Of a stretch of 64,000 nucleotides of DNA, positions 4,060 through 53,554 are shown one piece after another. The stretch covers positions 26,632,132-26,696,131 of the forward strand of contig NC_044044.1 of the NCBI RefSeq assembly GCF_901765095.1. Direction: 5' to 3'. Position numbers and translations under genes: made by a program. The notes below the pieces were generated by a model. It worked only from the letters and a program-made list of their open reading frames with translations, searched no databases and was not told the DNA's origin. This stretch comes from Microcaecilia unicolor. Taxonomy: Eukaryota. Every line of letters begins with the position of its first letter. Position 1 is the stretch's first letter.

Positions 4060-4262
4060 CAAATATTTTTTTTTTTTTTATTTTTGTTACATTTTTACCC
4101 CGCGCTTTCCCACTCATGGCAGGCTCAACGCGGCTTACATGGGGCAATGGAGGGTTAAGTCACTTGCCCAGAGTCACAAGGAGCTGCCTGTGACTGAAGT
4201 GGGAATCAAACTCAGTTCCCCAGGACCAAAGTCCACCACCCTAACCACTAGGCCACTCCTCC
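4060..4262 (-). mobile_element. tRNA-derived SINE with a MIR-like core, nested inside the L2-like LINE
   Basis: The reverse complement begins ggagtggcctagtggttagggtggtggactttggtcctggggaactgagtttgattccc (A-box and B-box like). Its core, gtgactctgggcaagtgacttaacc, resembles the MIR core. Its tail, gtaagccgcgttgagcctgccatgagtgggaaagcgcggggtaaaaatgtaacaaaaa(A)n, is followed by poly-A. It splits the LINE ORF2 between ...NTAARLI and ...LHWLPLK. Confidence 0.75.
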
Positions 4263-4699
4263 ACTCCACTATGAGTCTGGCTGCGGTGTTTTGGGTGGTT
4301 TGAAGTTTCTTGATGATCTGTTCTTTACATCCAGCGTAAAGTGCATTGCAGTAGTCCAGGTGACTTAGTACCATCGATTGTACCAGATTTCGGAAAACGG
4401 CCCTTGGGAAGAAAGGTTTTACTCTTTTGAGTTTCCGCATGGAGTGGAACATTTTCTTAGTTGTATTCGTCAAGTGGCTTTCAAGTGTGAGATGTCGATC
4501 TATGGTAACTCCAAGAATTTCCATGGGTGCTTATCTGCGATGTGTAACTTATTTTTATTCTGTGGCCTTGCTGCAGGGATCGGTGAGAGCTTTTATTTCT
4601 TTCTATATGTCTCGTAGTTTTTTGCTTTATGGGTTTTGTATTTTCCCACACGTTTGTTAAAGTTTCAAGTTTATTAAACGTTTGATATATCGCCCAGGG

Positions 4700-11439: not shown

Positions 11440-11800
11440 GTAAGGTGGTAGTAAGATGGAAGTAAGGTGGTAGTAAGCTGGGAGTAAGGTGGCAATAAAG
11501 GAGGAGTAAGGTGGTTATAACCTGGGAGTGAGGTGGTCATAAAGACAGATCAAGGTGGTAGTGCTGAGATGAACATAAAGTGGTAGTAAAGCTGGAGCAC
11601 AGTCTAATAAGTTGGGAGCAACATGTTAGTATACCAAGAGTAAAGTGGTGGTAGCCTGGGCATGGGTCCAAATTGAACTAAATATAAGCAGCAAGCAGGA
11701 TAGTAGAGATGTAAGCACATATGAAGGAGGGGAGACAGTGCTAGGGCATCAGTAAAGCAAAGTAACGTAGTAGTAAAGCTGTAGTGAGGTGTAATTCATT
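11440..11800. repeat. Degenerate minisatellite with a unit of about 20-22 bp (gtaaggtggtagtaagctgggag-like), lying just 3' of TPPP2
   Basis: Visible periodic units include agtaaggtggtagtaagatggaagtaaggtggtagtaagctgggagtaaggtggcaataaagg... Confidence 0.7.
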
Positions 11801-11984
11801 TCTTTGTTTTCTCGTCAAATGTGCCAGCTCCCTTGTAGGCACCCACATAGCCAGTGTTACTGACCATTTCCTCACGCCCCGACATGCCTTTGCCCTTCCC
11901 ACTTTCATCAAATCTCTCCTTGTGCGAGCCAGTATACTTCGAAGTATCTGTGAGTCGGTCCACACCACCCACGGCCACTGCTTT
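11796..11984 (-). CDS. TPPP2: TPPP2-like terminal coding exon, encoding [62 protein letters not shown]
   Basis: The acceptor ttctttcag|AAA is in phase 0. The C-terminus is near-identical to the TPPP2 family as I recall it ([14 protein letters not shown](T/S)[13 protein letters not shown]...GREEM..NTGYV..YKG.GT.D.KTK). The assembled protein is 171 aa, against 170 aa for human TPPP2. Confidence 0.85.
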
Positions 11985-12039
11985 CTGAAAGAACACAGCA
12001 AAATGAAAAGTTAGTTACTGAGAAAACTAGCACTGGGAA

Positions 12040-12430
12040 ATAAAGATCAGTCTTGTAGAGGGTGCTCCCATGGAGATAGTGCCAGTAACTGTCCTGTCTA
12101 GGTCTAGTGTCTGCAACTCTTCTTCCTGTAGGGGGCACCCTGGGAACAGTGCCTCTAACTCTTCTCCCTCCTATAGGGGGAATTCCCAGGAACTTTATCC
12201 TCCTTTCTTCTGCACGGAGCACGTGTGAGGATAAGGTTCCTTCTGCAAAGGGCACCCCGGAGGACAATGACTTTAAATTGTTCTTTCTCTCCTGCAGGGG
12301 GAGACACCTATGGGGTGCTCCTCTAGGAACAGTGGCTGTAACTCTCCTACTTCTCCTGTAACTCTTCCCTATCCTGCAGGAGGCACCCAGGAATCTAATA
12401 TCTCTCCTTCCTCTTGGGGGGGATTGTGAT
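12040..12430. repeat. Tandem repeat of about 60 bp in TPPP2 intron 2 (cctgtagggggcaccctgggaacagtgcctctaactcttc...)
   Basis: About 6 degenerate copies are present. This accounts for the 260-aa minus-strand ORF 11908..12690, which merely reads through exon 2 into the intron. Confidence 0.7.
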
Positions 12431-12465
12431 GTCCTGGTGTTTGCATCTCCAGGTCCTGCTCTCAC

Positions 12466-12619
12466 CGTTATCCCTGTGCTGCTTGGTTGCCGGCCTATCA
12501 CCATCTTGCTAATGGATTCGAAGGCGTCCTGAGATGGCTGCCCTTTAAACCTCTTGGCCGATAGCTCCTTCAAGGCCGCCACAAACTCTTCAAAAGTGAG
12601 ATTCCGTGCACCCTTGGTC
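12466..12619 (-). CDS. TPPP2: TPPP2-like coding exon 2, encoding (K)TKGARNLTFEEFVAALKELSAKRFKGQPSQDAFESISKMVIGRQPSSTGIT
   Basis: The acceptor is ...tgtgctttcag|G and the donor is ACG|GTGAGA. The split Lys codon is completed from exon 1. The KVKxKxARxxTFxxF and KRFKG motifs are characteristic of the TPPP family. Confidence 0.8.
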
Positions 12620-13139
12620 CTGAAAGCACAGGGGAAGGGTGAAAGGGAGAAGAGAGACAAGATGGCGGCGCAGGTCTTAAGGGCAAGCATTTCTCTTCTT
12701 TAGGAGTTCACACCACATTGCCCCAGTTCCCTTCCCTCAAGACCCTCTGTCCTCCACTGGTATTGTACCTTTTTGACCTCTGGTCACTAGTGTGGTTAAG
12801 AAAAGGACACTGGCCTTCAAAAAGGAGGACAAAAGTGTGCATTGAATTAGCATAGATAATTTGCATATGCAAATGCATTTACATAGGTGCGACATTATGA
12901 ATCAAATCCAGGTCCTCTGTGTAAGCCAGTGGACCAGATTAAACTAGATGAGCTTGGGCCCCATTTTTGCATAGAATTCTTCTCTTCCTCCCTCCCCCAC
13001 CCCCAACATCCCTACCTAAAACAGAGGGCAGGGATTCTTTAAAATATGTTGACTGACTGGTGTGCTGGGGGGAATGGTAAATGTGTATTGGAGTGTCCCT
13101 CTTAATCAGGGGTCTCTGGCTGGAATTCACAACATCCAG

Positions 13140-13510
13140 AGTAGCCACCCAGTACTGAGACCCTCACACACACACAACTCTGATGCTGCAACTCACTCCT
13201 GCCATGCTTCATGTCCCCCCTCCCCCAACACAGACACAATTCTGTCAATGCACCTCATTCCTGCCAGGCAGTACTTCTTTCTATCCCAGTGGTAACACCT
13301 CCCACCCCTCCCACACACACACACCCACCCCCTACAACACTACCACTGCACCTCATTCTTGCTATGCAGCACCAGAAGAGACCCTCCCTACACACTGTTC
13401 TGCCCATGCATCTGGCTCCTGCCATGTACTGCCCCCTGCTTTTCCAATGCCCCCACCCCCAAACACACACTCACATATAAAGCTCTGCTATGTAGCTCCC
13501 TCCTGCCAGG
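13140..13510. repeat. Tandem repeat of about 100 bp, about 3.5 copies, C/A-rich
   Basis: The motif ...caatgcacctcattcctgccaggcagtac... (also ctgccatgcttcatgtcccccctcccccaacacagacac.) recurs. Overlapping ORFs on both strands are artefacts. Confidence 0.7.
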
Positions 13511-14399
13511 GTTGTGTTCACAAAGCACACCGAACCCATCCAGAAAAAGGCTGTGTTTCAACCATGCCCTGAGCTCCCTTAAATCATTCTTCCTAACCAA
13601 AGGGTAGGCAAGGGTTAATCTCTCAGACAGCTGGGTGAGAGGGGGAAATAAATAATTACCTGCCAAAAGACAACAGAAAGACTGCAATGGCCTTAGAATT
13701 TAACATTTCTAGCCTAAGGGTCAATTTTTCACTTAAAGGCACAGGGGATCTGTGGGCTGACTGGGATTCCAGTGCTTTTGTCTCTTTAACCCTGTACCTT
13801 TAAAGACCTCACGGGAGATATAGAAGGTTGGCTACTTTGCATGGCAAGGGGTGGGAAAGCTGGACTGTGGGTCACCAGGAGAACTGTGTGTTTCCCAGAT
13901 CCCTCTGTGGCAAACCAACATTAAAGCTCACTTGAGTTCAAGGGTAAGACACCTTCCATCCCTGCAAAAACTCCAGTGAGTAAGCGATGTCTCCCAGTCC
14001 ACTACACCCAGAATCCATCAGCCCCTTCAAACCAAATACAGGCAAAGAAATGGGACATGTGAATGATTATGTCGAGGGAGGCAGGGCTGGTTTGGACTTT
14101 CAGAGCAGTGGGGGGGGGGGGGGGGGCGGGAATCAGAAGATACGGGAGATTGGAGGCCTGCCACTGCAAGGGCTTTTCAGGGGCACTTTCTGCTCCCCAC
14201 TGACTGCCTGGTTTTCTAACGGTAGCATCAGCCCTGGGTACACATTTATTTGAGAAGGAATCATAAAATAAAGATCCCCAACTCTCTGCAAAGTTATTAG
14301 CTAGTCTCCCTACCCTTTTCCCCATAGTTTTTAAAACTTGAACCACAGCACACAGCATTAACAGATAGCCTCTAGAAGGCACAGCAGGGCTTAGTTCAG

Positions 14400-14965
14400 T
14401 GAAAGATGCTTGGGGGGGAAAAAAAAAACACGATCTCAGAGACCTGGTGGAAGAAGGACAATCAATGGGACACTGTGTTATCAGGGTACAAATTATATCG
14501 CAATGATAAAGTGGATCAAATTGGAAGGGGGGGTTACGCTGTATGTTAAAGGGGGAATTGAGTCAAACAAAGTAAATATTCTACATGAAACAGATAGCAC
14601 GGAGTCCTTGTGGACAGAAATTCCATGTGAGGGGAAAGAGTATACTGGTAGGGGGCTGTACTACCGTCTGCCAAGAGAGAACGAACAGACAGAAAGCTGG
14701 CAAATTGGGCTAGGGAGGTACAGTTCTCAGATGTAATCAATGACTGTTTATTGAAGCAACTGGGCCGACAAGAAGGGAAGCAAGCTATTTTAGATCTAGT
14801 CCTCAGTGGAATGCAGGGCATGGTACGAGAGGTAACAGTATTGGGTCCGCTGGGAAACATGTCCCCCATGTCCATCTCAATAATTGAGTTTCTGCCAGGT
14901 ACTTGTGACCTGGATTGGCCATTGATGGAAGCAGGATACTGGCTTAGATGGACCATTCGTCTGAC
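14400..14965 (+). mobile_element. Internally deleted CR1-like LINE: the ORF2 N-terminal endonuclease region is joined directly to the CR1 3' UTR
   Basis: ORF 14410..14736 contains ...GGVTLYVKGGIESNKVNILHETDSTESLWTEI...GRGLYYRLP (compare CR1 ORF2 ...GGVALYV...ESLWVRI...VCYRPP). ORF 14751.. contains AILDLVLSGMQGMVREVTVLGPLG.SDH.M (compare [30 protein letters not shown]). It is followed by the CR1 3'-UTR motif ctggattggccattgatggaagcaggatactggcttagatggaccattcgtctgacccagtatggc. Confidence 0.55.
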
Positions 14966-15039
14966 CCAGTATGGCTAATCTTATGTTCTGGGCTTTCAAG
15001 CGCTATCAAGAATCCTCAGAGCATCCTCTTCCTCTAGCC

Positions 15040-15345
15040 TATGCCCCATTCTCTGGTCTCCTATGATCTCCCATCTTTCCTTGTACCCTACAATGTAACC
15101 TTCTTTCCTTATGCACTTTGATGTCACACCCTCTCCTTAAATCTGTGATGTCACATTTCCTCACCTCCAGTGAAGTCACATTCCTCCTTACACCCTGTGA
15201 TGTCACATGCCCTCTTTTTATTTGCTCACGTCTAGTGAAGTCACATTCCAGTGATATAATATCCCTTCCTTACACTCTGTGATGTCACACACACTGATGT
15301 CATATCCTGCCTTCGTCCTCAGTGACGTCATATCCCCTCCTCACC
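15040..15345. repeat. Tandem array (about 38-bp unit, about 8 copies) in which every unit carries a TGAYGTCA (CRE-like, ACGT-core) motif. It lies immediately inside TPPP2 intron 1.
   Basis: Successive units include gtgatgtcacat, gtgaagtcacatt, gtgatgtcacatg, gtgaagtcacatt, gtgatgtcacac, ctgatgtcatatc and gtgacgtcatatc. Confidence 0.75.
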
Positions 15346-15361
15346 ATCATCAGACACTCAC

Positions 15362-15534
15362 TTAACCTTGTTGAACACGATGTCCACGTCTGTGGTCGTG
15401 ACAGCCTTGCCATCCATGATTTTACACTCCTTGCAGAGTTTGGAGAAGTTCTTTCCGGTTATGTCCTTTCCGGTGGCGGCCGTGTCACCGTAGACAGCAA
15501 ACTTCTTGAAGGCATCCTGTAGCTCCTGCGACAT
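15362..15534 (-). CDS. TPPP2: TPPP2-like (tubulin polymerization-promoting protein family) coding exon 1. ATG is at 15534-15532; the product begins [57 protein letters not shown](K)
   Basis: Minus-strand translation is a close match to the p25/TPPP family N-terminus ([20 protein letters not shown]). The in-frame TGA right after KVK forces splicing at a GTGAGT donor inside the Lys codon (exon ends ...GTT AA | GTGAGT). The phase matches the next exon. Confidence 0.8.
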
Positions 15535-17065: not shown

Positions 17066-18789
17066 CTTCTAATCTTGTGCACCTGTCTGGCACTATTTTA
17101 TCAGGGTTGTCTCTCTGTTGATTGGGTTTTTTTTTTACTATCTGATGTTACCGTCTACTGCTTTGTTAGCCTACGTGCAAGGTGAGAGGATTTGGGGGAG
17201 AGAGAGAGAGAGTGAGTTTTGGCCTCAGATTGAACTTGTTTGCGCACTGGCCTCTGCTAAATAACCCTCAACCCCACTGGCCTGAGAGGTCTACTACATA
17301 GGTTAATAGTTAAAACGTTAATTCTTGGAGAATTCTTCAATTTATTAGATTCTCGGGATATGGGGCCCCCCTGGGACCTGCAACTTGAAGGGGATTCACC
17401 TAGGGTGCCTAATTTCCTTCCGCCGGCCCTTCCTGCCAGCTGAATTCTGGGGATGGGAATAGTTGGCTGGCAGCAGAGGAAAAATGCATCCAGGCAGGAG
17501 ACCTTTTTCACCTATATACTGCCTGCCCCATATATCAGCCACCCCAAGAATCTCACACCAACCAAAGGCAGACACACCCGGAGGCCAAACGTAGACCTGC
17601 AACACACCCCTTCACTATCCCTTCCCTCTCCCAGCATGTCTACTCCAAGCCAAAAGTCCCATTTCTCACCTGTTCCTTGACCCCTCTACTCCCAGTGGCT
17701 TGACCCCTGTGGTTCTCTCCTGCTGTTTACCCAGGCAAAGGAGTAGCTATGGCCAGTGGGCTAAAGGTCTCCATGGAAACACATTATTCTTGACTCTATC
17801 CATTGTGACCTCAGGTGCCGTGACCTCACACCACGCCGTGTCACCTCGTGGGTGAAAATTCTATTTGAGTGAAATAGAGAAGCACTGGAATAACAGTGAA
17901 AGGAGCAGGGGGAATTCTTTTGGGTGCCACCCTCCTGATAATCACACTTTAGTCTAACTGTGGTCATTTCCATTAACTGTCCAAATGTTTGTGTCTCCTT
18001 CTATGATGGTGGAGCAGTAGGGAATGGTGGAAGGGGGCACTGGCAGTGTGTGGAGGGAGCTGTGGAGCGTGTGGAGGAATGCTGTCTGTAGGGGAGCTGT
18101 AGGGAATAGTGGAGGGACACGGGATGACTCCGAGATCACTGTGCACTTGTCCACATTACAGGCTAGAGCTATGAATAGGGCTGCCGAGAGACCAAGCCAG
18201 GCCCGGGGCAAATAATCATGAAGGCTGAAGAAAGCAGCTTTATTGCCAGCACCAGGCCCCCCCCCCCCTCCTCCTTGGAGACCAGGCCCCGGGGAACCTT
18301 CATGGCCCTGTTAATGGTCATTACTGCGATAGATGTGTTATGTTAGTGTAGATCCCATTTTATGCAATGCAGCCTATCTTGCTAATGCATACTAACCCCT
18401 GGATTCTATAAACATTGCCCAAATTTGGGCACCCAAAATAATCAGCCAGTGGGCTAATATGATTTAAATATTGGAGTGAACAAGCACTTAATTGGCTACA
18501 TGATATGCTATAATAAATAGGTGCCTAAAAATCACGACCAACTCAAAAGGGGTGTGGCCATGGGAGGGGCATAGGCAGGCCAAGGGTGTTCACCACAGAT
18601 GTGGGCAGTGTTACAGAATTGTGTGCCAGGGTTTCAGCGGGCATAAGTCCTCACGCCCAAAGTTGAGTCCCGAATTTGCTGCTCAGTGCTATTCTGTACA
18701 GAGCGCTCATGCCCTTTACACCATAGTGTTGGGCGCCGAATTTTATCGGTGCCAAATTTTTAGCACCGTTTATACAATCTGGTACAAGC

Positions 18790-19030: not shown

Positions 19031-21829
19031 TGGTTCCATTGCTTGTGCTAGGTTGTCTGTTGATATTTTGCACTTAACTGCATAAGTTAACCAGACAAAT
19101 AGAACCACATGAAACACACTCCTATCTTTAATTTATGTGTAAGAGATTGCCACAACCAGATAAGTGATTCCTGCTTTATTCAATGCCAGTGCCTGGACAT
19201 GGTCTGGAACTGAATATCCGGGCCGAACGCCTAAGAATTTAGCAACTTTGAATAACTGTGCATCATCTGTTAATTTAAACGCTTCCCTCGTCATGCCTCT
19301 CTGCAAATCATTTACCAACATATTTAAGCATGCAGTGAATGCGGGTGTTGTGTATCTCAGTGGGAGGGAAGAAGACATCTTAAGGTTAAAATCTTGCAAA
19401 TACAATGTTGATCGTTAGCGACATTTGTTCGATTGTTGGTTCGGTGGGTGAATTGACAATGAACCCGACTACGCTGCAGACAAAATGCAAAACTGCATTG
19501 CCTTTTTGTGGCTGGCATCGTGGCGAATTGCCAACTGCCCTATTTGTGATGTCATGTTTAATCCTGAAGGAGCTTAATCTGCTTACAGAGCTGGGTGCGG
19601 CTCTCGCTGCCTCTTTGATGGGCAGACTGGATGGACCGTGCAGGTCTTTTATCTACCATCATTTACTATGTAAAAGCAGCGATGCCAGTAGAGATCGCCA
19701 GGGGGGGTGGGGGGGGGGGTCACTCCATTAGGAAAGGTGACCGTTTAGTCCTGCTCTCTCTGTTTCCAGGTGGGAAAGAGCATTCCGCTTCCAGATCTTT
19801 CCTTTCTTCCAGGTGGAGGGTTCTCACCCCTCTCCCCCAGGTCAGATCCAGCCCTGGTTTTCCCCCTCTCCCCGAAGGCATGTGTGGAGCTGTCCTTATT
19901 TTTCCCATAGCTCCCCCCCCCACACCCTAAAAACAGGCCTACAAATCTAGTCATGCATGGGGGAGGGGGTGTGCAAACCTAGGACTTGCTCAGCCTGTTC
20001 AATTGGGGGGTGGGGGTTGCAGTTGACCTAGGGAGCTTCCCCCCCAGCACCCACACCGCGGTACTCTATTCCCAGGTACAGGTGTGAGAGGGGTGGATAG
20101 TCACAGATTCCCCGCTGCTTTCCAGTTCCATGCCAGGAATTGCCACCCTCTCAACACCAAGCAGATTTGGAGGGATGGATCCTGCAGCCTTTTTAATATT
20201 CACATAGCGGGATTTGTGCAGGAAGGGGGTGCTGTTTATTCTGCACGTCTAATTAATATTCATGGGATGCTCCTGCACATGTGCCAGGGATGGTTTCCAT
20301 GGGATTTGACGGGTTCTGAGTGATATCACTCCAGACATGTGCTAACAGGAGGGGAAGGGGCTCGGGGATTGAGGAGCGGAGGGGGAGTCCAGAAGGGCTG
20401 GGATCCCATTGCTGGGGCAGTGTGTGTGTCTGTGTCTTTCTTTTGGGTTCCACTGCTAAAGCAGTAGGTATGGGAGGTGTGATGTAGCTGGAAGGAACAT
20501 CCCAGGACTGAATGAGACTACACACATACACACACACCAGACAGCAGCTGGCACAAAACATTGTCAATCTACCCTCTGCACATTTTGGCTGCTTCATCTC
20601 TCCCATCTTCCCTGCTATTCCTCACTCCTCATCCATTCCCCCTCCCTCCTTCTCTCCTTTTAATCTCCCACTAATCCTGTCGCCCTAGAAACCCCGGCTC
20701 CAAGAATGCATTTGAAGTCACCCTCCTTGCGGATGGGAGCCGGCTGCTTTCTATTCCACGGGCATTGTCCGCCAGTGGAAAAAAAAAATCTTTTTATATG
20801 GAAATCAGTCACCTTTGGTACTACTGGGAAAAATTCCCTTCTGCACACCAAGCTCTCTGTTTATCTGTCTGGTTCTTCCAGGCCTGCACAGGAGCACTGC
20901 ATGGGGAGAATGGAGCCTAAAGTATGGCCTGTGTTCTTTACTGCACACAGGGGCACTGTTGACTTAATCAAGAGTACAGTTTGATCTTCCCTCATCATCT
21001 CCACTCTGCAATATGCCAAAAAAATACAACCTTTGTTGTTCTGATTTCTTGAACCAGAGAAATGAGCAGATACAACCAGTAGATCGAATACCTATGCAAG
21101 GATTTATCACCAAAACAGCCAGGCAGCCCACCCTCCGGCCTGCATCCCAGGACAGCTGATGTGAGAGACAATGAAATATGCCTTGACACTGCAGAAGACA
21201 GGTATCCTTGAAAGTTTTTGTAACCCTTTTCTGTCATCTGTTTCTTCTCCCCCTGCCTCTGCGGACTTTGCATCTGTATGTATATGTGTCTGTCTCCCTC
21301 TCTCTGTCTCTCTCTGCGTCTTCTACCCCTGTGTGTATATCTTTATTTCTCTCTTTCTGCAGGCCTTTGAGTGTCTCTATCCTTCTCACATTGAATACTT
21401 TTCTTTTCCTTTATCTCAGTCTCTTTCTAGCTCTCTTTGTCCCTCTGTTTTTCATCTATATCTGCAGTCTCTCTCCCTGTGCCTCTGTTGTCCCTGTCAG
21501 AGAAAGAGTCCTGCCCTCATCCTGCATCCAGCCTCCAGGAGAACCAACCTAGAACAATCCAGGAAGAAAATTCTTCAGAAAACATGGAAAATTCATGACA
21601 GTTTCAGGGTGATATTAGTGTGAGCTTTCTCCCACCAGGGCCCTGACACACACATCAGTGGGACTTGCAGCAGCAGGTGATAACTCAACATGATGATCTA
21701 AAGATTTGTAGGATGTGGGTGTGTAACCTCATGTGGATCTAGTCTTGGTGTTCCTCAGAAAGGGATGGATCGAAAGACATATCACCATCACCATTATCAC
21801 TATGACCACCATTGCCATCACTTTCATAG

Positions 21830-22650
21830 TTACCGTTCTCATGATCATCATCACAATCACCACATTCACCATTCATCACCGTCACCATCATCACTATCAA
21901 AATCATAGTTACCATTCTCATGATCACACCACATTCACCATTCATCACCATCAACATCACTATCAAAATCATAGTTACCATTCTCATGATCACACCACAT
22001 TCACCATTCATCACCATCACCATCATCACTATCAAAATCATAGTTACCATTCTCATGATCACACCACATTCACCATTCATCACCATCAACATCACTATCA
22101 AAATCATAGTTACCATTCTCATGATCACACCACATTCACCATTCATCACCATCAACATCACTATCAAAATCATAGTTACCATTCTCATGATCACACCACA
22201 TTCACCATTCATCACCATCACCATCATCACTATCAAAATCATAGTTACCATTCTCATGATCACACCACATTCACCATTCATCACCATCAACATCACTATC
22301 AAAATCATAGTTACCATTCTCATGATCACACCACATTCACCATTCATCACCATCACCATCATCACTATCAAAATCATAGTTACCATTCTCATGATCACAC
22401 CACATTCACCATTCATCACCATCAACATCACTATCAAAATCATAGTTACCATTCTCATGATCACACCACATTCACCATTCATCACCATCACCATCATCAC
22501 TATCAAAATCATAGTTACCATTCTCATGATCACACCACATTCACCATTCATCACTATCAAAATCATAGTTACCATTCTCATGATCACACCACATTCACCA
22601 TTCATCACCATCAACATCACTATCAAAATCATAGTTACCATTCTCATGAT
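21830..22650. repeat. Minisatellite array A: alternating 66- and 69-bp units (caccattcatcaccatca(a/c)catcactatcaaaatcatagttaccattctcatgatcacaccacatt), about 12-13 copies
   Basis: The array is near-perfect. It produces His/Thr/Ile-rich ORFs of 277-320 aa on both strands (21733..22653, 21739..22701, 21920..22753), which are artefacts. Confidence 0.9.
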
Positions 22651-23289
22651 TAGCATCACAACCTCCTTCGGCCCAACACAACTGGATTTTGCAGCTCCCA
22701 CTTCTCAGCAGGTTCTTAGGCAGGTCCACCTCAGTTCTGTAACTTTCCTATAGGTTATAAGAGTTCTATTGGGAGAGGTTGGAGCAGGATCTTATCTATT
22801 TCTCTCCTTGATATTACTTGGAACAATAAGACCCTAAGTAAATGTTTTCATAGTTGTTTTCTGGATCCTCTCCCCCTATGTCCCCACCCGTAACCTCCGC
22901 TCTCAGGACAAATCACTCCTATCTGTACCCTTCTCCACCACCGCTAACTCCAGACTCCGTCCCTTCTGCCTCGCATCACCTTATGCCTGGAACAGACTCC
23001 CCGAGCCCATACGCCATGCGCCCTCCCTGCCCATCTTTAAGTCCTTACTCAAAGCCCATCTCTTCTCCCTTGCTTTTGGCGCCTAACCACCTTCCCCATT
23101 CATGATACACTGACTACATAGTTTGTTACCTTTAGATTGTAAGCTGTCTTGAGCAGGGACTGTCCTTCCCCATGTTTTAACTTGTACAGCGCTGCGTAAC
23201 CCTAGTAGCGCTATAGAAATGCTAAGTAGTAGTAGTAGTAGAGCTATTAGTCTTGAGTGGTTTCAGTCTGTGCCAGACTATGATTCTTC

Positions 23290-25160
23290 TGATCAAATGG
23301 AGATGGCGTTGATAGTGGTGATCAATAATGAGGTGATGGCAATGGTGGTTATGATGACGATGATGTTGGTGATGATAATCATGACAATTGTGATGGCAGT
23401 TATTATGATGTGTGGACGATGATGGTGGTAGTGGTAGAATGATTATTATGATGAAGATGATAATGGTGGTGGTTGCGATAATGATTATGATGTGGTAATG
23501 ATTATGGTGTGATGATGAAGATGGTATTGGTGGTGGTGGTGGTGATTGTGATGATGATACTGCTGGTGATGATGGTGGTGGTAGTGGTAATGATTATGGT
23601 GTGATGATGAAGATGGTATTGGTGGTGGTGGTGGTGATTGTGATGATGATACTGCTGGTGATGGTGGTGGTAGTGGTAATGATTATGGTGTGATGATGAA
23701 GATGGTATTGGTGGTGGTGGTGGTGATTGTGATGATGATACTGCTGGTGATGATGGTGGTGGTAGTGGTAATGATTATGGTGTGATGATGAAGATGGTAT
23801 TGGTGGTGGTGGTGGTGATTGTGATGATGATACTGCTGGTGATGATGGTGGTGGTAGTGGTAATGATTATGGTGTGATGATGAAGATGGTATTGGTGGTG
23901 GTGGTGGTGATTGTGATGATGATACTGCTGGTGATGATGGTGGTGGTAGTGGTAATGATTATGGTGTGATGATGAAGATGGTATTGGTGGTGGTGGTGGT
24001 GATTGTGATGATGATACTGCTGGTGATGGTGGTGGTAGTGGTAATGATTATGGTGTGATGATGAAGATGGTATTGGTGGTGGTGGTGGTGATTGTGATGA
24101 TGATACTGCTGGTGATGATGGTGGTGGTAGTGGTAATGATTATGGTGTGATGATGAAGATGGTATTGGTGGTGGTGGTGGTGGTGATTGTGATGATGATA
24201 CTGCTGGTGATGATGGTGGTGGTAGTGGTAATGATTATGGTGTGATGATGAAGATGGTATTGGTGGTGGTGGTGGTGATTGTGATGATGATACTGCTGGT
24301 GATGATGGTGGTGGTAGTGGTAATGATTATGGTGTGATGATGAAGATGGTATTGGTGGTGGTGGTGGTGATTGTGATGATGATACTGCTGGTGATGATGG
24401 TGGTGGTAGTGGTAATGATTATGGTGTGATGATGAAGATGGTATTGGTGGTGGTGGTGGTGATTGTGATGATGATACTGCTGGTGATGGTGGTGGTAGTG
24501 GTAATGATTATGGTGTGATGATGAAGATGGTATTGGTGGTGGTGGTGGTGATTGTGATGATGATACTGCTGGTGATGATGGTGGTGGTAGTGGTAATGAT
24601 TATGGTGTGATGATGAAGATGGTATTGGTGGTGGTGGTGGTGGTGATTGTGATGATGATACTGCTGGTGATGATGGTGGTGGTAGTGGTAATGATTATGG
24701 TGTGATGATGAAGATGGTATTGGTGGTGGTGGTGGTGATTGTGATGATGATACTGCTGGTGATGATGGTGGTGGTAGTGGTAATGATTATGGTGTGATGA
24801 TGAAGATGGTATTGGTGGTGGTGGTGGTGATTGTGATGATGATACTGCTGGTGATGATGGTGGTGGTAGTGGTAATGATTATGGTGTGATGATGAAGATG
24901 GTATTGGTGGTGGTGGTGGTGATTGTGATGATGATACTGCTGGTGATGATGGTGGTGGTAGTGGTAATGATTATGGTGTGATGATGAAGATGGTATTGGT
25001 GGTGGTGGTGGTGATTGTGATGATGATACTGCTGGTGATGATGGTGGTGGTAGTGGTAATGATTATGGTGTGATGATGAAGATGGTAATGGTGGTGGTGG
25101 TGAAGATTGTGATGATGATACTGGTGGTGGTGGTGGTGGTAGTGGTAATGGTTAAAATTT
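23290..25160. repeat. Minisatellite array B: about 92-bp units (ggtgtgatgatgaagatggtattggtggtggtggtggtgattgtgatgatgatactgctggtgatgatggtggtggtagtggtaatgattat), about 18 copies. It is related to array A but in reverse-complement orientation.
   Basis: The reverse complement of the array A unit (ggtgtgatcatgagaatggtaactatgatt...gatggtgatgaatggtg) aligns with the array B unit (ggtgtgatgatgaagatggtattggtgg...ggtgatgatggtgg). The two arrays are separated by about 640 bp of unique sequence. Confidence 0.85.
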
Positions 25161-26329
25161 GATGATGAAGCCTGAAAACTAGAAAGCTAGATATGTAATG
25201 TCAGTCAAGATCCTTCAATTCTTTCTTCCTCTTTAAAATTCCTTCCCTTCCCCAATATCATTGACTGCCCAGGAAAACTAGTTATGGATGCAGAATGGTT
25301 TTTACTTTTCTCTAGATTAAGAAAGAGAGAGAGAAAGAGAGAGTCAGTCAATGAGAAGAAAACTGGACTCAATGAACCTTCTGATGTTCTACTAACTTGA
25401 CAAACTCTTTGCACATCTACATAATAATGTGACTATGACTCTCTTTAAAAACTCACTGTGTTGCTCATTGAGGGCTTTGTGTGTTCAGCTCTACCACTTT
25501 CAACTCCCTTGTCCTTCTCAGCTCCTCATTGACGTTACCTACAACCAGCAAAGGGATGTTATAAACTACCCTAATTCTATTGTATCCCTACTTCTTTGAC
25601 CTCCTTGTTGCTCTCATTGCCCTCTGCCATCTCCCATCTCCATGCTTAAACCCTAGAGGCATATGTTAAACATCCAACAGCAGGTCAATGTCTAAAGTTA
25701 GACATCAATAAAAGTGGTCCAAGGCGAGAACAGCCTCACATCAATTTCATATATCTTCAGGTTGACTACACTGGGCATTCGATCTTATAATTTGTTGGAG
25801 GCAAGATCCTGGGTCAACCCTGCTTAAGTATCTAATCCAGCATTCAGACTGAGTACAGATGGGATTACTTTCCTTTTGAGCTGTCCGTTTTCTTCAGCTC
25901 CATTGGGTCTTCAGCTCAGTCAGAGCCAGGCCTGCGATCTAGTACCATAATACCTGGAGTTTATTCCCCTTATTTATATCTCTCCCACCAACACACCAAA
26001 TCTGGTCATTACAGGGACCATCCTTGGCCATGCTGGGTCAGATCTAAGGTCCACCAAGCCCATCCCCCTCCTTGACCTTGGCCAGTCTGCCGGGTCACTG
26101 CAAAGTACCTAGGTAACCCCAAAGAGGTGTCTTTTGCTCTACCTGCAGAAGGTTACATATGTAGCTTGCATAGAACTGCACCGTTGATACTATAGTAGGC
26201 TGGTTCTAGGAATCCACTGCTGTTCCAAAATCTGCTTTCAATACAAGTTAGCCCCATACCAGTGGTAGCCAATTTCCAGTCCTCATGGAGGCCAATCTAC
26301 ATGGGTATTCAGGATAGCCCTGATGAATA

Positions 26330-31129: not shown

Positions 31130-31690
31130 TTGCTGCCAGAGGAAAGATTGTTTCTAATCCCCGGCTCTGTCACTGACTCTCTTGTGTGACCTGCGGAAGT
31201 CACTTTATCTCTCTGTGTCTCAGTTTTAATCCTCGGCTCTGTCACTGACTCTCTGTATGTGACCTGGGGGAGTTACTTTATCTCCCTTTGCCTCAGTTCT
31301 AATCCCCGGCTCTGTCACTGACTCTCTTGTGTGACCTGGGGAAGTCACTTTATCTCTCTGTGACTCAGTTCTAATCCCCGGCTCTGTCACTGACTCTCTT
31401 GTGTGACCTGGGGAAGTCACTTTATCTCTCTGTGCCTCAGTTCTAATCCCCGGCTCTGTCACTGACTCTCTGACCTGGGGGAGTTACTTTATCTCCCTTT
31501 GCCTCAGTTCTAATCCCCGGCTCTGTCACTGACTCTCTTGTGTGACCTGGGGAAGTCACTTTATCTCCCTTTGCCTCAGTTCTAATCCCCGGCTCTGTCA
31601 CTGACTCTCTTGTGTGACCTGGGGAAGTCACTTTATCTCTCTGTGCCTGAGTTCTAATCCCTGAGTGTGATCCTGGGGGAGTCTCTCTTT
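31130..31690 (+). repeat. Tandem array of about 60-62 bp units, about 9 copies, derived from a MIR-type SINE core
   Basis: The unit is ccccggctctgtcactgactctcttgtgtgacctggggaagtcactttatctctctgtgcctcagttctaat. Compare the mammalian MIR core ...gtgaccttgggcaagtcacttaacctctctgagcctcagtttcc. Minus-strand ORFs (31226..31462, 31443..31631) with reiterated TEPGIRTE peptides are artefacts. Confidence 0.75.
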
Positions 31691-33216: not shown

Positions 33217-33439
33217 GGGATTGAAATCCCAACTTTATCTTTCCTTAAAAAAATACTCTGATTATTTACAGTCTTGTATTGGATGACATGTTCCAGCGTT
33301 GAATAGCAGGCTTTGTGTAATCCGAGTTTTAGTAGAATATAAAACTGCTCTAAAGATTATAAAGCAATGTCAGGTGATGTATGACAGAGCTGTGGCTGTA
33401 TCAGAAGCCCCCCCCCCCCCCATCTCCTCCACTGCCCTT

Positions 33440-34148
33440 TCTCCCCCCAGTATTGGGTGTTATTAGGAAAGGTATGGAAAACAGGTGTGAGGATGTTATA
33501 ATGCAGTTGTATCGCTCCATGGTGCGACCGCACCTTGAGTATTGTGTTCAATTCTGGTCGCCGCATCTCAAGAAAGATATAGTAGAATTGGAAAAGGTGC
33601 AGCGAAGGGCGACTAAAATGATAGCGGGGATGGGACGACTTCCCTATGAAGAAAGACTAAGGAGGCTAGGGCTATACAGCTTGGAGAAGAGACGGCTGAG
33701 GGGAGACATGATAGAGGTATATAAAATAATGAGTGGAGTGGAACAGGTGGATGTGAAGCGTCTGTTCACGCTTTCCAAAAATACTAGGACTAGGGGGCAT
33801 GCGATGAAACTACAGTGTAGTAAATTTAAAACAAATCGGAGAAATTTTTTCTTCACCCAACGCATAATTAAACCCTGGAATTCGTTGCCGGAGAACGTGG
33901 TGAAGGCGGTTAGCTTGGCAGAGTTTAAAAAGGGGTTAGACGGTTTCCTAAAGGACAAGTCCATAAACTACTACTAAATGGACTTGGTAAAAATCCACAA
34001 TTTCGGGAATAACTTGTATAAAATGTTTGTACGTTTGGGAAGCTTGCCAGGTGCCCTTGACCTGGATTGGCTGCTGTCGGGGACAGGATGCTGGGCTCGA
34101 TGGACCTTTGGTCTTTTCCCAGTATGGCATTACTTATGTACTTATATG
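33440..34148 (+). mobile_element. CR1 LINE, 5'-truncated 3' portion (ORF2 C-terminal region plus 3' UTR)
   Basis: ORF 33381..33977 reads ...[95 protein letters not shown]...[50 protein letters not shown], the canonical CR1 ORF2 C-terminus. The 3' UTR is ...ttgccaggtgcccttgacctggattggctgctgtcggggacaggatgctgggctcgatggacctttggtcttttcccagtatggcattacttatgtacttat. Confidence 0.85.
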
Positions 34149-36065: not shown

Positions 36066-38466
36066 ATGGCTTCAAGATCCCTGACCCCAAGCCCATCTTC
36101 TGACTCAGACAAAGAGCTTGCTGCTGGCATCACCCTTCCTCTAGGTGCTTCACACCAACAGGATCCTGTTACTCCTCCACCCCACATCTCTCTGCCTCCA
36201 GTGGAGAGAGACTGTCTTCATCTATTGCAGCAAGACTGTTCTTCCTTGATGCCAAGAGACTGCCTTTCTCCAGTTCAGAGAGACAATTTATCACCCAGAA
36301 ATAAATGTTCTTCATCTACATCAAAGGAAAACCCTTTATCTCAACTAGAAGAATGTTCTTCAGTTATTCCAAGAGACTCTCCTCCTTCAGTCCAGTGGGT
36401 TAGCCCTCCTCCAATGCCAGACTCTTTGTTATCCATACAGAGAGATCATTTATCTCCGGTAAAGATGGACAGTCCTGCAAGACACAGGAATTGTTCTTTG
36501 GCAATGCAAAGAGATTGTCCTTCTGTAATCCAAGAAAGCTGCACTTCCCTGCATCAAGTCTGTCTGTCTCCAGTGCGTAAAGGAAGTTCTCCTCCAAGAG
36601 ACTGCTCTTTATCAGTGGAGAGAAACTGTCCATCCCCAACACAGATGGAATGTCTTGGTCCAGTACAAAGAGATTGCTCTTTATCAATGGAGAGGGACTG
36701 TCCTTCCACACTACAGAGGGACTCACCTCTTATCCAGCATCTCAGTCCTTCCCCTCCCTGTCTGACGCCTCCCTCTCAGCCAGCCTCTCCTGACCATGCC
36801 TTTGTTGCACTGAACCCTGTTGCCACTGCTTCCCATGTTCCCGTGACCTCTCTACCCCTGGATGAGGTCCTCCATGAGCTGGCTTTCAACGGTGAGCTAG
36901 ACCTTCAACGCTACTCCAATGGCCATGCCCCATTAGCAACAGATGGAGCAGAAGAGCGTGGGCAGGAGGCACGTAAGTACCAGTGCCCAGTTTGTGGCAA
37001 GCGCTTCCGTTTCAACAGCATCCTCTCTCTGCACACACGCATTCACACTGGGGAGAAGCCCTTCCAGTGTCCCTACTGTGGTCACCAGGCCACTCAGAAA
37101 GGCAACCTGAAGATCCATCTGCGCACCCATCAACCTGGTGGTGACGAAGTGGTCAGTGAGGAGACCCGGTTGCTGCTGGAGCTGGAGGAGAGAGCACTCC
37201 TGAGAGAACAGCGCAACCAAGGAATGTCAAGACAGTGGAAGCACCCGTCATGGCTACTGGAGGTAAAGACACCGATGGTGGCCAAAGAGAAACCCGAGAT
37301 TCTGCCAGCTCCTCAAGACGAAGAAGAGGAGGAGGAAGAAGAGGAGGACGAGGAGGAGGAGGTGGTGCAAATCCCGATCCCTGTTACCCCTCCCTCACTA
37401 CCACCTCCGGGATTCCGCTGCCCATTCTGCAAAGGAAAATTCCGGAAGGCCCGGGAGCTGGAGAAGCACGTTCATATTCTCCATAAGCCCTACCGGTGCA
37501 CGATCTGTGGATTTGCAGCCACCCAGGAAGAAGGCCTGGCACGGCATGCAGAAGAAGTGCACCCAGTGAGGGAGGAGGAAGCAGTCGTTGAAGTTGGTGA
37601 GCCAGTGCAAGTAGCACCGCCGACTACACCGGTAAAGGCAGAACCACCAGTAGCAGAATTCCGTTGTGAGGTGTGCAGCCAAGCCTTCACTCAGTCGTGG
37701 TTCTTAAAGGGCCATATGAGGAAACACAAAGATTCTTTTGACCACAAGTGCCAAGTATGTGGGAGATGCTTCAAGGAGCCCTGGTTCCTGAAGAACCACA
37801 TGAAGGTCCACCTTAGTAAACTAGGGCTGAGGGGGGACAAGACCACAGCATCAGAGGTCTCCACATCCAGACCCAAGAAGGAGCAGGATCTTCTGGGATA
37901 TGACACCTTCTACTCAGCTTTCCTGCTTTCTGCCAGCCAGGAGAAGAGGGAGCAGCTGGTGAGTGTGGCAGAGAAGGGCTCCTTCTTGGGGTACCTCAGC
38001 CTACGGTCCCCCTCTGATGGGAGCTGCACAGAGAGGCTGCAGGCCACAGCCAGGGCCCTGGAGGTGGGCCAGGGGCAGGTTTGGCATCCACCAGGACTGG
38101 AGCCTTCAGAAGTCTGCTGGGTGAGCGGCAAGGGAAAGCAGAAGCGGAAGGGCCACTCCAGGAGGCCCAAGGACAAGAGATCCCAGGTAGGCCCGGCAGG
38201 ACTTTGTGATGGGCCTTCGAAAAATGAGGAATTTGGGGGCACTTGCCGCTGTCTTGAATGTGGTAGAACGTTTGGGAACTACCAGCAGTTGGAGGCCCAT
38301 ACTGCAATGGGTCATCATACCACCAGGGAGGAAGAGGAGTGGGCTGGGAGAGGGGCCTCAAGAACTTCCCATGCCAGTCACAACGGAGGCCACGGAGTGG
38401 GAGGCCACAGTGGAGCTGGAAGAGGAGCAGCGCATGGGGTGTCCCTGCAAGCAGGAAGATTCCCAG
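36066..38466 (+). CDS. ZNF219: ZNF219-like C2H2 zinc-finger protein, first coding exon. It contains the N-terminal repeat region, an ELDLQRYSNG block, six or seven fingers and an acidic tract.
   Basis: ATG at 36066 follows directly after an acceptor (ctgcag|atcATGG) and has a strong Kozak context. Diagnostic blocks match what I recall of human ZNF219: NGELDLQRYSNG, YQCPVCGKRFRFNSILSLH, ETRLLLELEERALLRE, FRCPFCKGKFRKARELEKHVHILH, and FRCEVCSQAFTQSWFLKGHMRKHKDSFDHKCQVCGRCFKEPWFLKNHMKVH. The donor CAG|GTATCA at 38466/38467 leaves phase 1, matching exon 2. An alternative donor at 38186/38187 is not phase-compatible. Confidence 0.85.
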
Positions 38467-38649
38467 GTATCAAAGCAGTCTGTCTGTCTGTCTGTCTTCA
38501 CTCTTCCTGTACCTCTCTGAATCTGTCTTCTGATTTCTCTTGTAATACTATTTCCTTGTACCATAATGGTGACATTATTTTCTGGGTTAAAATATTTATT
38601 TATTTATTTGGCATACTTGATACCGCCCAGTGGCCTACATAGAGACTTC

Positions 38650-40880: not shown

Positions 40881-41082
40881 CTAGGTAGCTATGAACAAGA
40901 GAGAAAATGGTATTAGGAAATTGTCCCTATCTTCCTCCAATAAAAATTTGCAAAATGGCCTCATGGTGGCAGTGCCAGTTCTGGACTGCAGTTCTCGGCT
41001 TTCATCACTAGAGGGGGCATGTTAGTCCAGCTGCTGCCCACTAACCAAGCCTTTACAGTTTTCTTGTTTCTTTCTTCCCTAG

Positions 41083-42116
41083 GTGAGCGCCCCTATAAGT
41101 GCCCGCACTGCGACTATGCAGGCACACAGTCTGGATCACTGAAATACCACCTGCAGCGTCATCACCGTGAGCAGAAAGTGGTGGCCAGTGGACGGACAGC
41201 AGGCGTCAAAGTGCCCTCCCCCTACCAGCATACCTTGCTGGTGCAAACTGGGAGGTATCACAGCTTCTACCTCCCCCAGCACTGGGCAGCTGCACAACTC
41301 ACACCAGTGAGGGCTGTGGATGAGAAGCCCGGGAGGCAGAGGGTGCCCTCTACTGGTGCTAGCAGTCTTGGAGACGTTGGCCCAACTTTCTCAGACCTCG
41401 CCAAGGTCTTCCAGAATCTGTCGGAGAGCGAGAGCCACCTGAAGGAGGAGCCACTGCCACCATCATCCCTGGCAGTCCCTGTTTGTATGCTGGAAAAGCA
41501 AGAAGACAAGGTAGGAGGGAAAAGACGGAGACAGCCGCCACCACCCCAGCCCCAGCAAGAAGCAGATGTGCCCTCTCCACCTCCACCACGCGTTTCCCGG
41601 AGAAAACCGGCAAGCACAAGTCGTGTGATCACCAACGGGAAGCCAGACTTCGAGCCTCTAGATCTCTCGTGGCGGCCACCGGCATCACCAGGCATGGACA
41701 GCGAAGTCACCCTTCATCGTTGCCCCTTTTGCCCTTTTGCTACCTCCTCTCCAGAGCTGATGGCACTTCATCTGCAGGTTCACCATAGCCGAAGGTCCCT
41801 CAGGAAGGAGAGGACCCCAAGAGGGCCTATCAAAAATGACACTGATACCACCAATGCCTTCCTTGGAAAGGCAGGGACCCACCTGCTCTCTGGAGATTGT
41901 GAGATGGTGGAGGATCTGGGTCAAGGACTGAAGGAGGACGAGGAGGAGGAGGAGGAGGAAGGCGAGAGCCCAGAAGCATTGGAGGAGAGAGACATGGATG
42001 GGAAGGAGACGCCGAAAAAAGGAGCAAAGCAGGAGAATGGAGTTCAGGGTTACTTAAGCAGAAGCAACTCAGAAGAGGAGGAAGCAGAGGGGGAGAGGCT
42101 TCCTGAGCATCGGTAG
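41083..42116 (+). CDS. ZNF219: ZNF219-like terminal coding exon, encoding (G)ERPYKCPHCDYAGTQSGSLKYHLQRHHREQ...LHRCPFCPFATSSPELMALHLQVHHSRR...EHR*
   Basis: Acceptor tttcttccctag|GT. It matches the human ZNF219 C-terminal fingers (ERPYKCPHCDYAGTQSGSLKYHLQRHHRE; ALHRCLFCPFA..PELMALHLQVHHSRR). The stop codon TAG is at 42114-42116. An AATAAA lies about 470 nt downstream (about 42586). Confidence 0.85.
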
Positions 42117-53195: not shown

Positions 53196-53554
53196 CCATT
53201 CCCCTCTTTGACAGTATCACAATCCTGAGCTTCAAATCCGACTCTGCTGACTTTCAATTCACAGATTGCAGTTATTAAACCCTCTTATTTTGCACTCGAA
53301 CAAATTAATTCTTCCTTGACAACTTGGAAACCTTGGTTTTTGCTCTGATTCCAATTCGTATTGACTATTGCAATGCTGTTCACTTTGGCTCAAATCAGTC
53401 CTCCATAAACTGCAGCTCCTCCAGTGTCCAGATTATTTACTGGAACAATCCGAATGGATCATGTTACTCCGATCCCTACTTGACAACACTGATTTCTAAT
53501 CTCTTTCAGAACAAAACAACAAAAAAAAAAATCAATCAACTAGTTTTAGCGGAG

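What the first reader, a model, noticed from the sequence alone, without database searches (positions are those of the whole stretch)
21830..25160. Two related minisatellite arrays in inverted orientation (potential 3-kb cruciform or fragile structure)
Array A (66/69-bp units × about 13) and array B (about 92-bp units × about 18) are clearly homologous once one is reverse-complemented. The shared blocks include ggtgtgat.atga.gatggta and ggtgatgatggtgg. They are separated by only about 640 bp. Large inverted arrays can extrude hairpins and cruciforms, are replication-unstable, and are often assembly-collapsed. They also generate 270-320-aa His-rich pseudo-ORFs on both strands that gene finders may pick up.
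Basis: seen in the sequence. Interest (0 to 1): 0.5.

Follow-up and report, generated by a model that had tools for sequence, protein, structure and literature searches.

The report
Two inverted minisatellites upstream of TPPP2
Two young tandem-repeat arrays sit in opposite orientation in non-coding DNA upstream of the TPPP2 gene of a caecilian amphibian; they are real and probably distantly related, but too different and too far apart to form a cruciform, so this is ordinary repetitive DNA.

Summary
Array A (21858-22650) has 12 units of 66/69 bp. Array B (23492-25170) has 18.3 units of 92 bp. They lie in opposite orientation, and each has a fringe of older degenerate units (21770-21857; 23290-23491).

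The window is Microcaecilia unicolor DNA. The arrays lie about 6.3 kb upstream of the first coding exon of TPPP2.

Within each array the units are identical apart from 3-bp indels, so both expanded recently. Between arrays the similarity is modest: 72% ungapped over 60 nt, and 65% over about 1 kb once 68 gap runs are counted. Most of this reflects a shared triplet vocabulary (z = 1.5-3.3 against triplet shuffles). A shared 22-mer and 17-20-nt exact matches involving the degenerate fringes make common descent likely, but not "clear".

A cruciform or fragile site is not supported. The arms are out of register, below the roughly 75% identity at which inverted-repeat instability disappears in yeast, and 640-841 bp apart.

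The long ORFs occur only in array A, match nothing in protein databases, and only one of them is His-rich.

Verdict: an ordinary, lineage-specific minisatellite pair of low interest.

The parts
21770..21857 (-). Degenerate (older) units at the outer edge of array A
   Evidence: Read from the sequence. It holds a 20-nt exact complement (21841-21860) of the B-unit block GTGGTGATTGTGATGATGAT; 1 of 900 triplet shuffles reach this length. It shares GTGATGGCAATGGTGGT (17 nt exact, 83% over 41 nt) with the degenerate B fringe.
21858..22650 (-). Array A: 12 units of 66/69 bp (one of 54), with the G-rich strand on the - strand
   Evidence: TRF gives period 66/135/201 and score 1360-1372. There are five distinct unit sequences, differing by 3-bp indels plus three point differences. 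The 135-bp (69+66) block recurs exactly 3 times.
22651..23289 (.). Spacer: unique sequence plus a SINE-like 3' end (about 22861-23242) that finishes in (TAG)5
   Evidence: There is no other copy in the window or in the Rhinatrema locus. No target-site duplication was found. The SINE assignment rests on resemblance recalled from memory only.
23290..23491 (+). Degenerate (older) units at the inner edge of array B
   Evidence: It is 67-73% identical to B units over 145-220 nt. Its best inverted match is to the degenerate A fringe, 23333-23373 versus 21821-21781 at 83%.
23492..25170 (+). Array B: 18.3 units of 92 bp (variants 89 and 95), with the G-rich strand on the + strand
   Evidence: TRF gives period 92, 97% matches and score 3157. 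Twelve units are identical; the variants differ only by one GGT or GAT triplet. A 460-bp five-unit block (23949-24408) is repeated exactly at 24409-24868.

Best explanation
These are two ordinary non-coding minisatellites in Microcaecilia unicolor. They lie about 6.3 kb upstream of the first coding exon of TPPP2; whether that DNA is intergenic or a 5' intron is not known.

Both probably descend from one old, degenerate, triplet-rich (GGT/GAT/GTG-type) simple-sequence tract. That tract came to lie in two orientations, either through a small inversion with one breakpoint inside it or through an inverted duplication. Each half then expanded and homogenised independently and recently. Triplet slippage produced the 3-bp length variants. 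Unequal exchange duplicated multi-unit blocks of 135 bp in A and 460 bp in B.

Neither array has a function. They encode nothing, and in duplex DNA they cannot extrude a cruciform.

Shown directly: the arrays, their orientation, their internal identity, their block duplications, their modest mutual similarity and the gene context. Inferred: common descent, the inversion or duplication event, and neutrality.
For: Arrays and orientation:
- Established.

Recent independent expansion:
- Units inside each array are identical apart from 3-bp indels.
- Exact 135-bp and 460-bp blocks recur.
- Degenerate units sit at one edge of each array.

Common descent:
- The units are colinear, with 55 identical positions in 68 aligned columns. 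A 24-nt tail present only in B accounts for the 69 versus 92 bp difference.
- A 22-mer block is present in every unit of both arrays and nowhere else in 64 kb.
- A 20-nt exact match links the degenerate A fringe to the B unit; 1 of 900 triplet shuffles reach this.
- The two fringes share a 17-nt exact match.

Non-coding:
- B has stop codons in all six frames within 92 codons.
- The ORFs have no Pfam family, no homologue, and are absent from the protein collections.

Context and lineage specificity:
- The spliced TPPP2 protein is 100% identical to the NCBI M. unicolor protein.
- The Rhinatrema orthologous locus keeps the exons and one upstream block. It has nothing like the arrays in its 10 kb upstream.

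Not a long-read palindrome artefact:
- The arms differ in unit length and sequence.
- The assembly used PacBio CLR, 10x, BioNano and Hi-C data (PMC10195157).
Against: - Homology is only modestly better than a shared triplet vocabulary would give (z = 1.5-3.3). The degenerate-fringe match is reached by 1-4% of triplet shuffles. Independent origin is therefore not excluded.
- No outgroup close enough to polarise an inversion was obtainable. Geotrypetes and the Microcaecilia locus itself were not on record.
- Short-read polishing of the assembly could have over-homogenised the units (PMC10195157), which would exaggerate their apparent youth.
- Genome-wide copy number of the units could not be measured, so a transposon origin is not excluded.
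Confidence: 0.7

Rival explanations
1. The pair acts as a large inverted repeat that extrudes a cruciform or hairpin and makes the locus fragile and unstable during replication.
For: - As a single strand, the 3.46-kb region folds with 761 A-B base pairs at -533 kcal/mol, against -114 when A is flipped.
- As RNA the fold is -1373 against -843 kcal/mol.
- In yeast with long single-stranded DNA, inverted repeats tolerate 75% homology and spacers up to 30 kb (PMC10164571).
Against: - Arm identity is 64.8% with 68 gap runs, or 72% ungapped over 60 nt. The mean perfect run in the arm alignment is 3.4 nt. Helices in the fold average 5.5 bp, with a maximum of 20.
- The fold energy is 44% of that of a perfect repeat of equal size.
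- The spacer is 640-841 bp.
- In duplex DNA, instability is lost at 75% homology and falls about 300-fold from a 12-bp to a 100-bp spacer. Even in single-stranded DNA the potential is lessened below 75%.
- Extrusion would require melting the whole spacer.
- Each array alone cannot self-pair: the fold has 0 A-A pairs and 58 B-B pairs.
Confidence: 0.05
2. The two arrays are unrelated by descent. Two triplet-rich simple sequences arose and expanded independently, and they look like reverse complements only because one is C-rich and the other G-rich with the same triplet vocabulary.
For: - Against triplet-vocabulary shuffles, the unit alignment reaches only z = 1.5-2.1; 3-8.5% of shuffles reach the observed score.
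- The local score reaches z = 2.1-3.3.
- The unit lengths differ (66/69 versus 92).
Against: - The 22-mer block is shared by every unit.
- There is a 20-nt exact match reached by only 1 of 900 shuffles.
- The fringes share a 17-nt exact match that includes GGCAATGG, which is not part of the triplet vocabulary.
- No other sequence of this type exists elsewhere in the 64 kb, yet these two lie 640 bp apart.
Confidence: 0.15
3. The structure is a Foldback-type (or other long-TIR) transposon. Its inverted arms would be built of tandem subrepeats around a unique middle.
For: The architecture resembles Drosophila Foldback elements as I recall them: two inverted arms made of tandem subrepeats, a degenerate fringe on each arm, and a unique centre.
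Against: - The arms use different units and are only 65-81% alike.
- There is no inverted homology in the 600 bp outside the arrays, beyond an 18-bp CT/GA match.
- The degenerate fringes are not symmetric: one is outer (A) and the other inner (B).
- The 640-bp centre is too short to hold a transposase.
- There is no second copy in the window, in the Rhinatrema locus, or in the metagenome and prokaryote collections.
Confidence: 0.05
4. Array A, or both arrays, are exons of a real histidine-rich or otherwise repetitive protein.
For: - Three frames stay open across array A for 277-320 codons.
- All length variants are multiples of 3.
Against: - Variants that are multiples of 3 also occur in B, whose 92-bp unit cannot keep a frame, so triplet slippage explains them.
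- The His-rich frame has no homologue at E <= 0.001 among 5.8 billion proteins.
- No Pfam family passes its cut-off.
- The ATG-start ORF is absent from a 15-billion-protein collection that includes the NCBI annotation of this species. The other two ORFs were submitted with V as the first residue, so their misses are not informative.
Confidence: 0.02
5. The inverted arrangement is an assembly artefact, such as a chimeric long read or a mis-oriented contig join.
For: - Tandem arrays are error-prone in assemblies.
- This assembly was polished with short reads, which can distort repeats (PMC10195157).
Against: - A missed-adapter palindrome would give near-identical arms. These arms differ in unit length and sequence.
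- Both arrays are far shorter than typical CLR reads (my own knowledge).
- There is no run of N in 21500-25500, and the sequence between the arrays is unique.
Confidence: 0.03

Closest known systems
Vertebrate minisatellites (VNTR-type arrays with degenerate edges and higher-order blocks)
   Same: - Units of 66-92 bp are arranged head to tail, in arrays of 0.8 and 1.7 kb.
- Composition is strongly strand-asymmetric (G-rich on one strand).
- The interiors are homogenised and the edges degenerate.
- Multi-unit blocks of 135 and 460 bp are duplicated exactly.
   Different: - Two related arrays lie back to back in opposite orientation.
- Population length polymorphism, the classical hallmark, could not be examined.
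Fragile long inverted repeats and quasi-palindromes (Alu inverted repeats in yeast; human PATRRs)
   Same: - Two inverted arms share some complementarity.
- A computed single-strand fold pairs the arms.
   Different: - Identity is 65-72%, against the 86-100% of unstable Alu pairs. Effects are lost at 75%.
- The spacer is 640-841 bp rather than under about 100 bp.
- The arms are unequal in length and out of register.
- The sequence is not AT-rich.
Foldback transposons (Drosophila FB; recalled from memory)
   Same: The inverted arms are made of tandem subrepeats around a unique centre.
   Different: - The arms belong to different unit types.
- There are no terminal inverted sequences outside the arrays.
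- There is no evidence of further copies.
- There is no coding capacity.
Cryptically simple, triplet-based sequence
   Same: - Both units are built almost wholly from GGT, GAT, GTG and ATG triplets. TRF also reports periods of 9 and 24.
- The 3-bp indels fall in GGT or GAT runs.
   Different: The sequence has been organised into long, exact 66-92-bp units rather than remaining a diffuse simple tract.

Membership tests
Minisatellite / VNTR | Head-to-tail tandem units of roughly 10-100 bp forming an array of 0.5 kb or more | tested here: met
   A has 12 units of 66/69 bp over 793 bp. B has 18.3 units of 92 bp over 1679 bp.
Minisatellite / VNTR | Copy-number polymorphism between individuals | not testable with these tools
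   Only one assembly of this locus was available. The locus itself was not retrievable from the contig collection.
Cruciform-forming or fragile inverted repeat | High arm-to-arm identity (instability lost at about 75% homology in duplex DNA) | tested here: not met
   Identity is 64.8% over 996 columns with 68 gap runs, 80.7% if only ungapped columns are counted, and 72-73% ungapped over 60-63 nt. The threshold comes from PMC10164571.
Cruciform-forming or fragile inverted repeat | Short spacer (tens of bp; about a 300-fold loss from 12 to 100 bp) | tested here: not met
   The spacer is 640 bp between the degenerate edges and 841 bp between the homogeneous arrays.
Cruciform-forming or fragile inverted repeat | Experimental evidence of extrusion or breakage | not testable with these tools
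   Only computed single-strand folds are available: -533 kcal/mol, 44% of a perfect repeat.
Foldback-type transposon | Both terminal arms built from the same subrepeat family, symmetric about the centre | tested here: not met
   The units are 66/69 versus 92 bp, with 55 of 93 columns identical. The degenerate fringe is outer in A but inner in B.
Foldback-type transposon | Multiple copies in the genome and target-site duplications | tested here: inconclusive
   There is no second copy in the 64-kb window or the other collections searched. The rest of the M. unicolor genome was not searchable, and the edges are too diffuse to call a duplication.
Histidine-rich repeat protein | Continuous reading frame with homologues or a recognised domain | tested here: not met
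   The frame is open only in A. There is no homologue, no Pfam family above cut-off, and the sequence is not in the protein collection.
G-quadruplex-forming repeat | Four runs of three or more G with short loops | tested here: not met
   The B arm has 0 canonical G3+ motifs. It has 38 two-G-run motifs, such as GGTGGTGGTGGTGG.

The most novel reading that the evidence does not exclude
The two arms may pair whenever the region becomes extensively single-stranded (after long resection or replication stress) or is transcribed. The pair would then act as a lineage-specific fold-back rearrangement hotspot, or as a source of long interrupted hairpin RNA, next to the TPPP2 promoter region. Its arm similarity sits just under the roughly 75% limit found for inverted repeats in single-stranded DNA in yeast.
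Probability: 0.05. Interest if true: 0.35.

Novelty: new member of a known kind. Interest (0 to 1): 0.08.

Why it matters
It matters little biologically. This is a lineage-specific pair of minisatellites in non-coding DNA.

The practical value is for annotation:
- The 277-320-aa ORFs in array A should not be called as genes.
- The inverted-repeat signal should not be scored as a cruciform motif, because most of it is strand-complementary triplet composition.
- The locus could serve as a length-polymorphic marker in Microcaecilia.
- If a close outgroup shows a single tract, the locus would be a tidy example of a micro-inversion followed by independent array homogenisation.

Tried and rejected
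- Coding reading. I listed ORFs and stop-to-stop frames in B. I ran Pfam, an exact look-up in the protein collection and a homology search with the His-rich frame. All were negative.
- RNA genes. An Rfam gathering scan and ARAGORN over the whole window found nothing.
- Transposon reading. I compared the outer flanks, the inner flanks and the spacer with each other and with the window. I found only an 18-bp CT/GA match and no second copy. A search for a target-site duplication around the SINE-like segment found none.
- Larger palindrome. The CT-rich tract to the left and the GA-rich tract to the right share the arrays' polarity, but they show no real alignment.
- Orthologous loci. The Microcaecilia and Geotrypetes TPPP2 proteins were not on record for contig look-up. 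Only Rhinatrema was obtained, and it is too distant for non-coding alignment beyond one block. I ran no further search on the zinc-finger gene to reach Geotrypetes, because the Geotrypetes TPPP protein carried no contig record.
- Other collections. A pattern scan with the shared 22-mer found 0 matches in the metagenome and prokaryotic genome collections.
- Related tracts elsewhere in the window. There are none.
Full report
**What is there**

Tandem Repeats Finder reports two strong arrays.
- Array A lies at 21858-22650. Its period is 66 bp (also 135 and 201), with 12.0 copies and 93-96% matches.
- Array B lies at 23492-25170. Its period is 92 bp, with 18.3 copies and 97% matches.

Anchoring on unit starts gives the unit lengths.
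- A runs 69-66-69-66-66-69-66-69-66-69-54-66.
- B runs 92-89-92-92-92-89-92-95-92-92-89-92-95-92-92-92-92.

A is C/A/T-rich on the + strand (3% G) and B is G/T-rich (2% C). The arrays therefore face in opposite directions.

Each array has a fringe of older, degenerate units.
- For A the fringe is at 21770-21857, on the outer side.
- For B the fringe is at 23290-23491, on the inner side.

The gap is 640 bp between the fringes and 841 bp between the homogeneous arrays.

**How alike are the arrays**

The best ungapped inverted pairs are 60-63 nt at 72-73%.

Rotated to a common start, the units are colinear. Of 68 aligned columns, 55 are identical, and a 24-nt tail present only in B explains 69 versus 92 bp.

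Over the whole arms, the best local alignment has 645 matches in 996 columns.
- That is 64.8% identity overall, or 80.7% if only ungapped columns are counted.
- It contains 68 gap runs, and no perfect run exceeds 12 nt.

Significance depends on the null model.
- Against dinucleotide shuffles the local score is z = 4.5, reached by 0 of 500 shuffles.
- Against shuffles that keep the triplet vocabulary it is only z = 2.1-3.3.
- For the unit-level global alignment it is z = 1.5-2.1.

Most of the reverse-complement resemblance is therefore shared GGT/GAT/GTG composition.

Three features go beyond composition.
- The block TGGTGTGATSATGARRATGGTA occurs in every unit of both arrays and nowhere else in the window.
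- A 20-nt exact match links the degenerate A fringe (21841-21860) to every full B unit. Only 1 of 900 triplet shuffles reach this.
- The two fringes share a 17-nt exact match, GTGATGGCAATGGTGGT, within 83% identity over 41 nt. This is reached by 1-4% of shuffles.

No other tract of this kind exists in the 64 kb. I conclude that common descent is likely but not "clear".

**Age and dynamics**

Within each array the units are essentially identical.
- Twelve of the 18 B units are the same sequence. The 89-bp and 95-bp variants differ by a single GAT or GGT triplet.
- A has two main unit types, of 66 and 69 bp.
- A 460-bp five-unit block of B is repeated exactly, and the 135-bp 69+66 block of A recurs three times.

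This is the signature of recent expansion by triplet slippage plus unequal exchange, occurring independently in each arm and starting from seeds that had already diverged.

One caveat applies. The assembly was polished with short reads, which could flatten real unit variation (PMC10195157).

**Context**

The window is vertebrate DNA. A three-exon TPPP-family gene lies on the - strand, at 15534-15366, 12621-12466 and 11984-11799. Its spliced product is 100% identical to the NCBI TPPP2 protein of Microcaecilia unicolor.

The arrays lie 6.3-9.6 kb upstream of the first coding exon. They are about 11 kb from a C2H2 zinc-finger ORF on the + strand.

The orthologous locus of Rhinatrema bivittatum (L001) aligns in the exons and in one upstream block. 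It has no similar array in its 10 kb upstream, even with low-complexity filtering off. Either the arrays arose after that deep split, or non-coding sequence has simply decayed.

Closer outgroups could not be retrieved. The shared 22-mer is absent from the metagenome and prokaryotic collections.

**Coding potential**

The ORFs of 277, 306 and 320 aa lie only in A, whose unit lengths are multiples of three. Only the 306-aa frame is His-rich. B has no open frame longer than 92 codons on either strand.

Length variants that are multiples of 3 also occur in B, where no frame can be kept. Slippage therefore explains them, and selection need not be invoked.

The protein evidence is negative throughout.
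- The His-rich frame has no homologue among 5.8 billion proteins.
- No Pfam family passes its cut-off.
- The ATG-start ORF is not in a 15-billion-protein collection. The other two ORFs were submitted with V as the first residue, so their misses are not informative.

These are pseudo-ORFs.

**Structure-forming potential**

Folded as single-stranded DNA, 21741-25200 reaches -533 kcal/mol with 761 A-B pairs.
- With A flipped the value is -114 kcal/mol.
- For a perfect 881-nt repeat with the same spacer it is -1204 kcal/mol.
- Helices average 5.5 bp, with a maximum of 20.
- Neither array pairs with itself.

As RNA the values are -1373 against -843 kcal/mol. The complementarity is real but heavily interrupted.

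In the yeast Alu inverted-repeat system, instability in duplex DNA is lost at 75% homology. It falls about 40-fold from a 12-bp to a 20-bp spacer and about 300-fold by 100 bp. Only in long single-stranded DNA are 75% homology and 30-kb spacers tolerated, and the potential is lessened below 75% (PMC10164571).

Here the arms are 65-72% alike, out of register and 640-841 bp apart. Cruciform extrusion is not credible. Fold-back annealing after long resection is marginal at best.

The G-rich strand of B has no canonical G3+ quadruplex motif, only two-G-run motifs.

**Origin of the inverted layout (inference)**

No inverted homology extends outside the arrays. This fits an inversion with one breakpoint inside an ancestral tract better than a duplication that carried flanking sequence.

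The observed order is degenerate fringe, A, spacer, degenerate fringe, B. That order is what results if the right half of an array with degenerate edges, together with its right flank, was inverted. Under this model A's abrupt inner edge and B's outer edge would be the breakpoints. This cannot be tested without a close outgroup.

A missed-adapter long-read palindrome is unlikely, because the arms differ in both unit length and sequence.

**Verdict**

This is a real but ordinary pair of minisatellites. They are probably related by descent, lineage-specific and non-coding, and they are not a plausible cruciform.

Noticed in passing
window 11799-15534 (- strand): A complete three-exon TPPP2 gene. 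Coding exons lie at 15534-15366, 12621-12466 and 11984-11799. The product is 100% identical to the NCBI Microcaecilia unicolor TPPP2 protein, which identifies the source organism.
   Followed up: yes
window 17624-17829; L001 8459-8669: A non-coding block about 2.1-2.3 kb upstream of the TPPP2 start codon. It is conserved between Microcaecilia and Rhinatrema at 79% over 212 bp. It could be a 5' UTR exon or a regulatory element.
   Followed up: no
L001 11573-13905; window 12106-12392: The Rhinatrema TPPP2 intron carries a 47-bp x 50 minisatellite. The corresponding Microcaecilia intron keeps only short remnants, 77-90% identical over 39-70 bp, and TRF detects no array there.
   Followed up: partly
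window 36066-38642 and 41019-42116 (+ strand): Long ORFs carrying several C2H2 zinc fingers, probably exons of one zinc-finger gene. Given the synteny with TPPP2, it may be ZNF219-like; that guess comes from memory and was not tested.
   Followed up: partly
window 55629-57281 (+ strand): A 550-aa ORF with NACHT, NOD2 winged-helix and NLRC4 HD2 domains, i.e. an NLR-family exon.
   Followed up: partly
window 61064-63660: The largest array in the window: 136-bp units x 19.1, 94% matches, strongly G/T-skewed (GC skew 0.34-0.62). It is unrelated to arrays A and B.
   Followed up: no
window 31152-31661 and 58319-58797: A 72-bp x 7.1 array whose unit resembles the core of MIR-type SINEs (from memory), and a 245-bp x 2 repeat with a similar sequence.
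   Followed up: no
window about 22861-23242: A SINE-like 3' end inside the spacer, finishing in (TAG)5. It is the only copy in the window and is absent from the Rhinatrema locus, and no target-site duplication was found. If it is a later insertion, the arrays were once only about 260 bp apart.
   Followed up: partly
window 21290-21480 and 25320-25345: A CT-rich tract left of array A and a GA-rich tract right of array B show the same strand polarity as the arrays. They share only an 18-bp 94% match, which is probably coincidence.
   Followed up: partly
window 4174-4524 (-), 33381-33977 (+), 48650-49006 (-), 53324-53809 (+): Several ORF fragments share a peptide of the type ...[32 protein letters not shown].... 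From memory this looks like the 3' end of CR1-type LINE reverse transcriptases. The fragments are dispersed on both strands.
   Followed up: no
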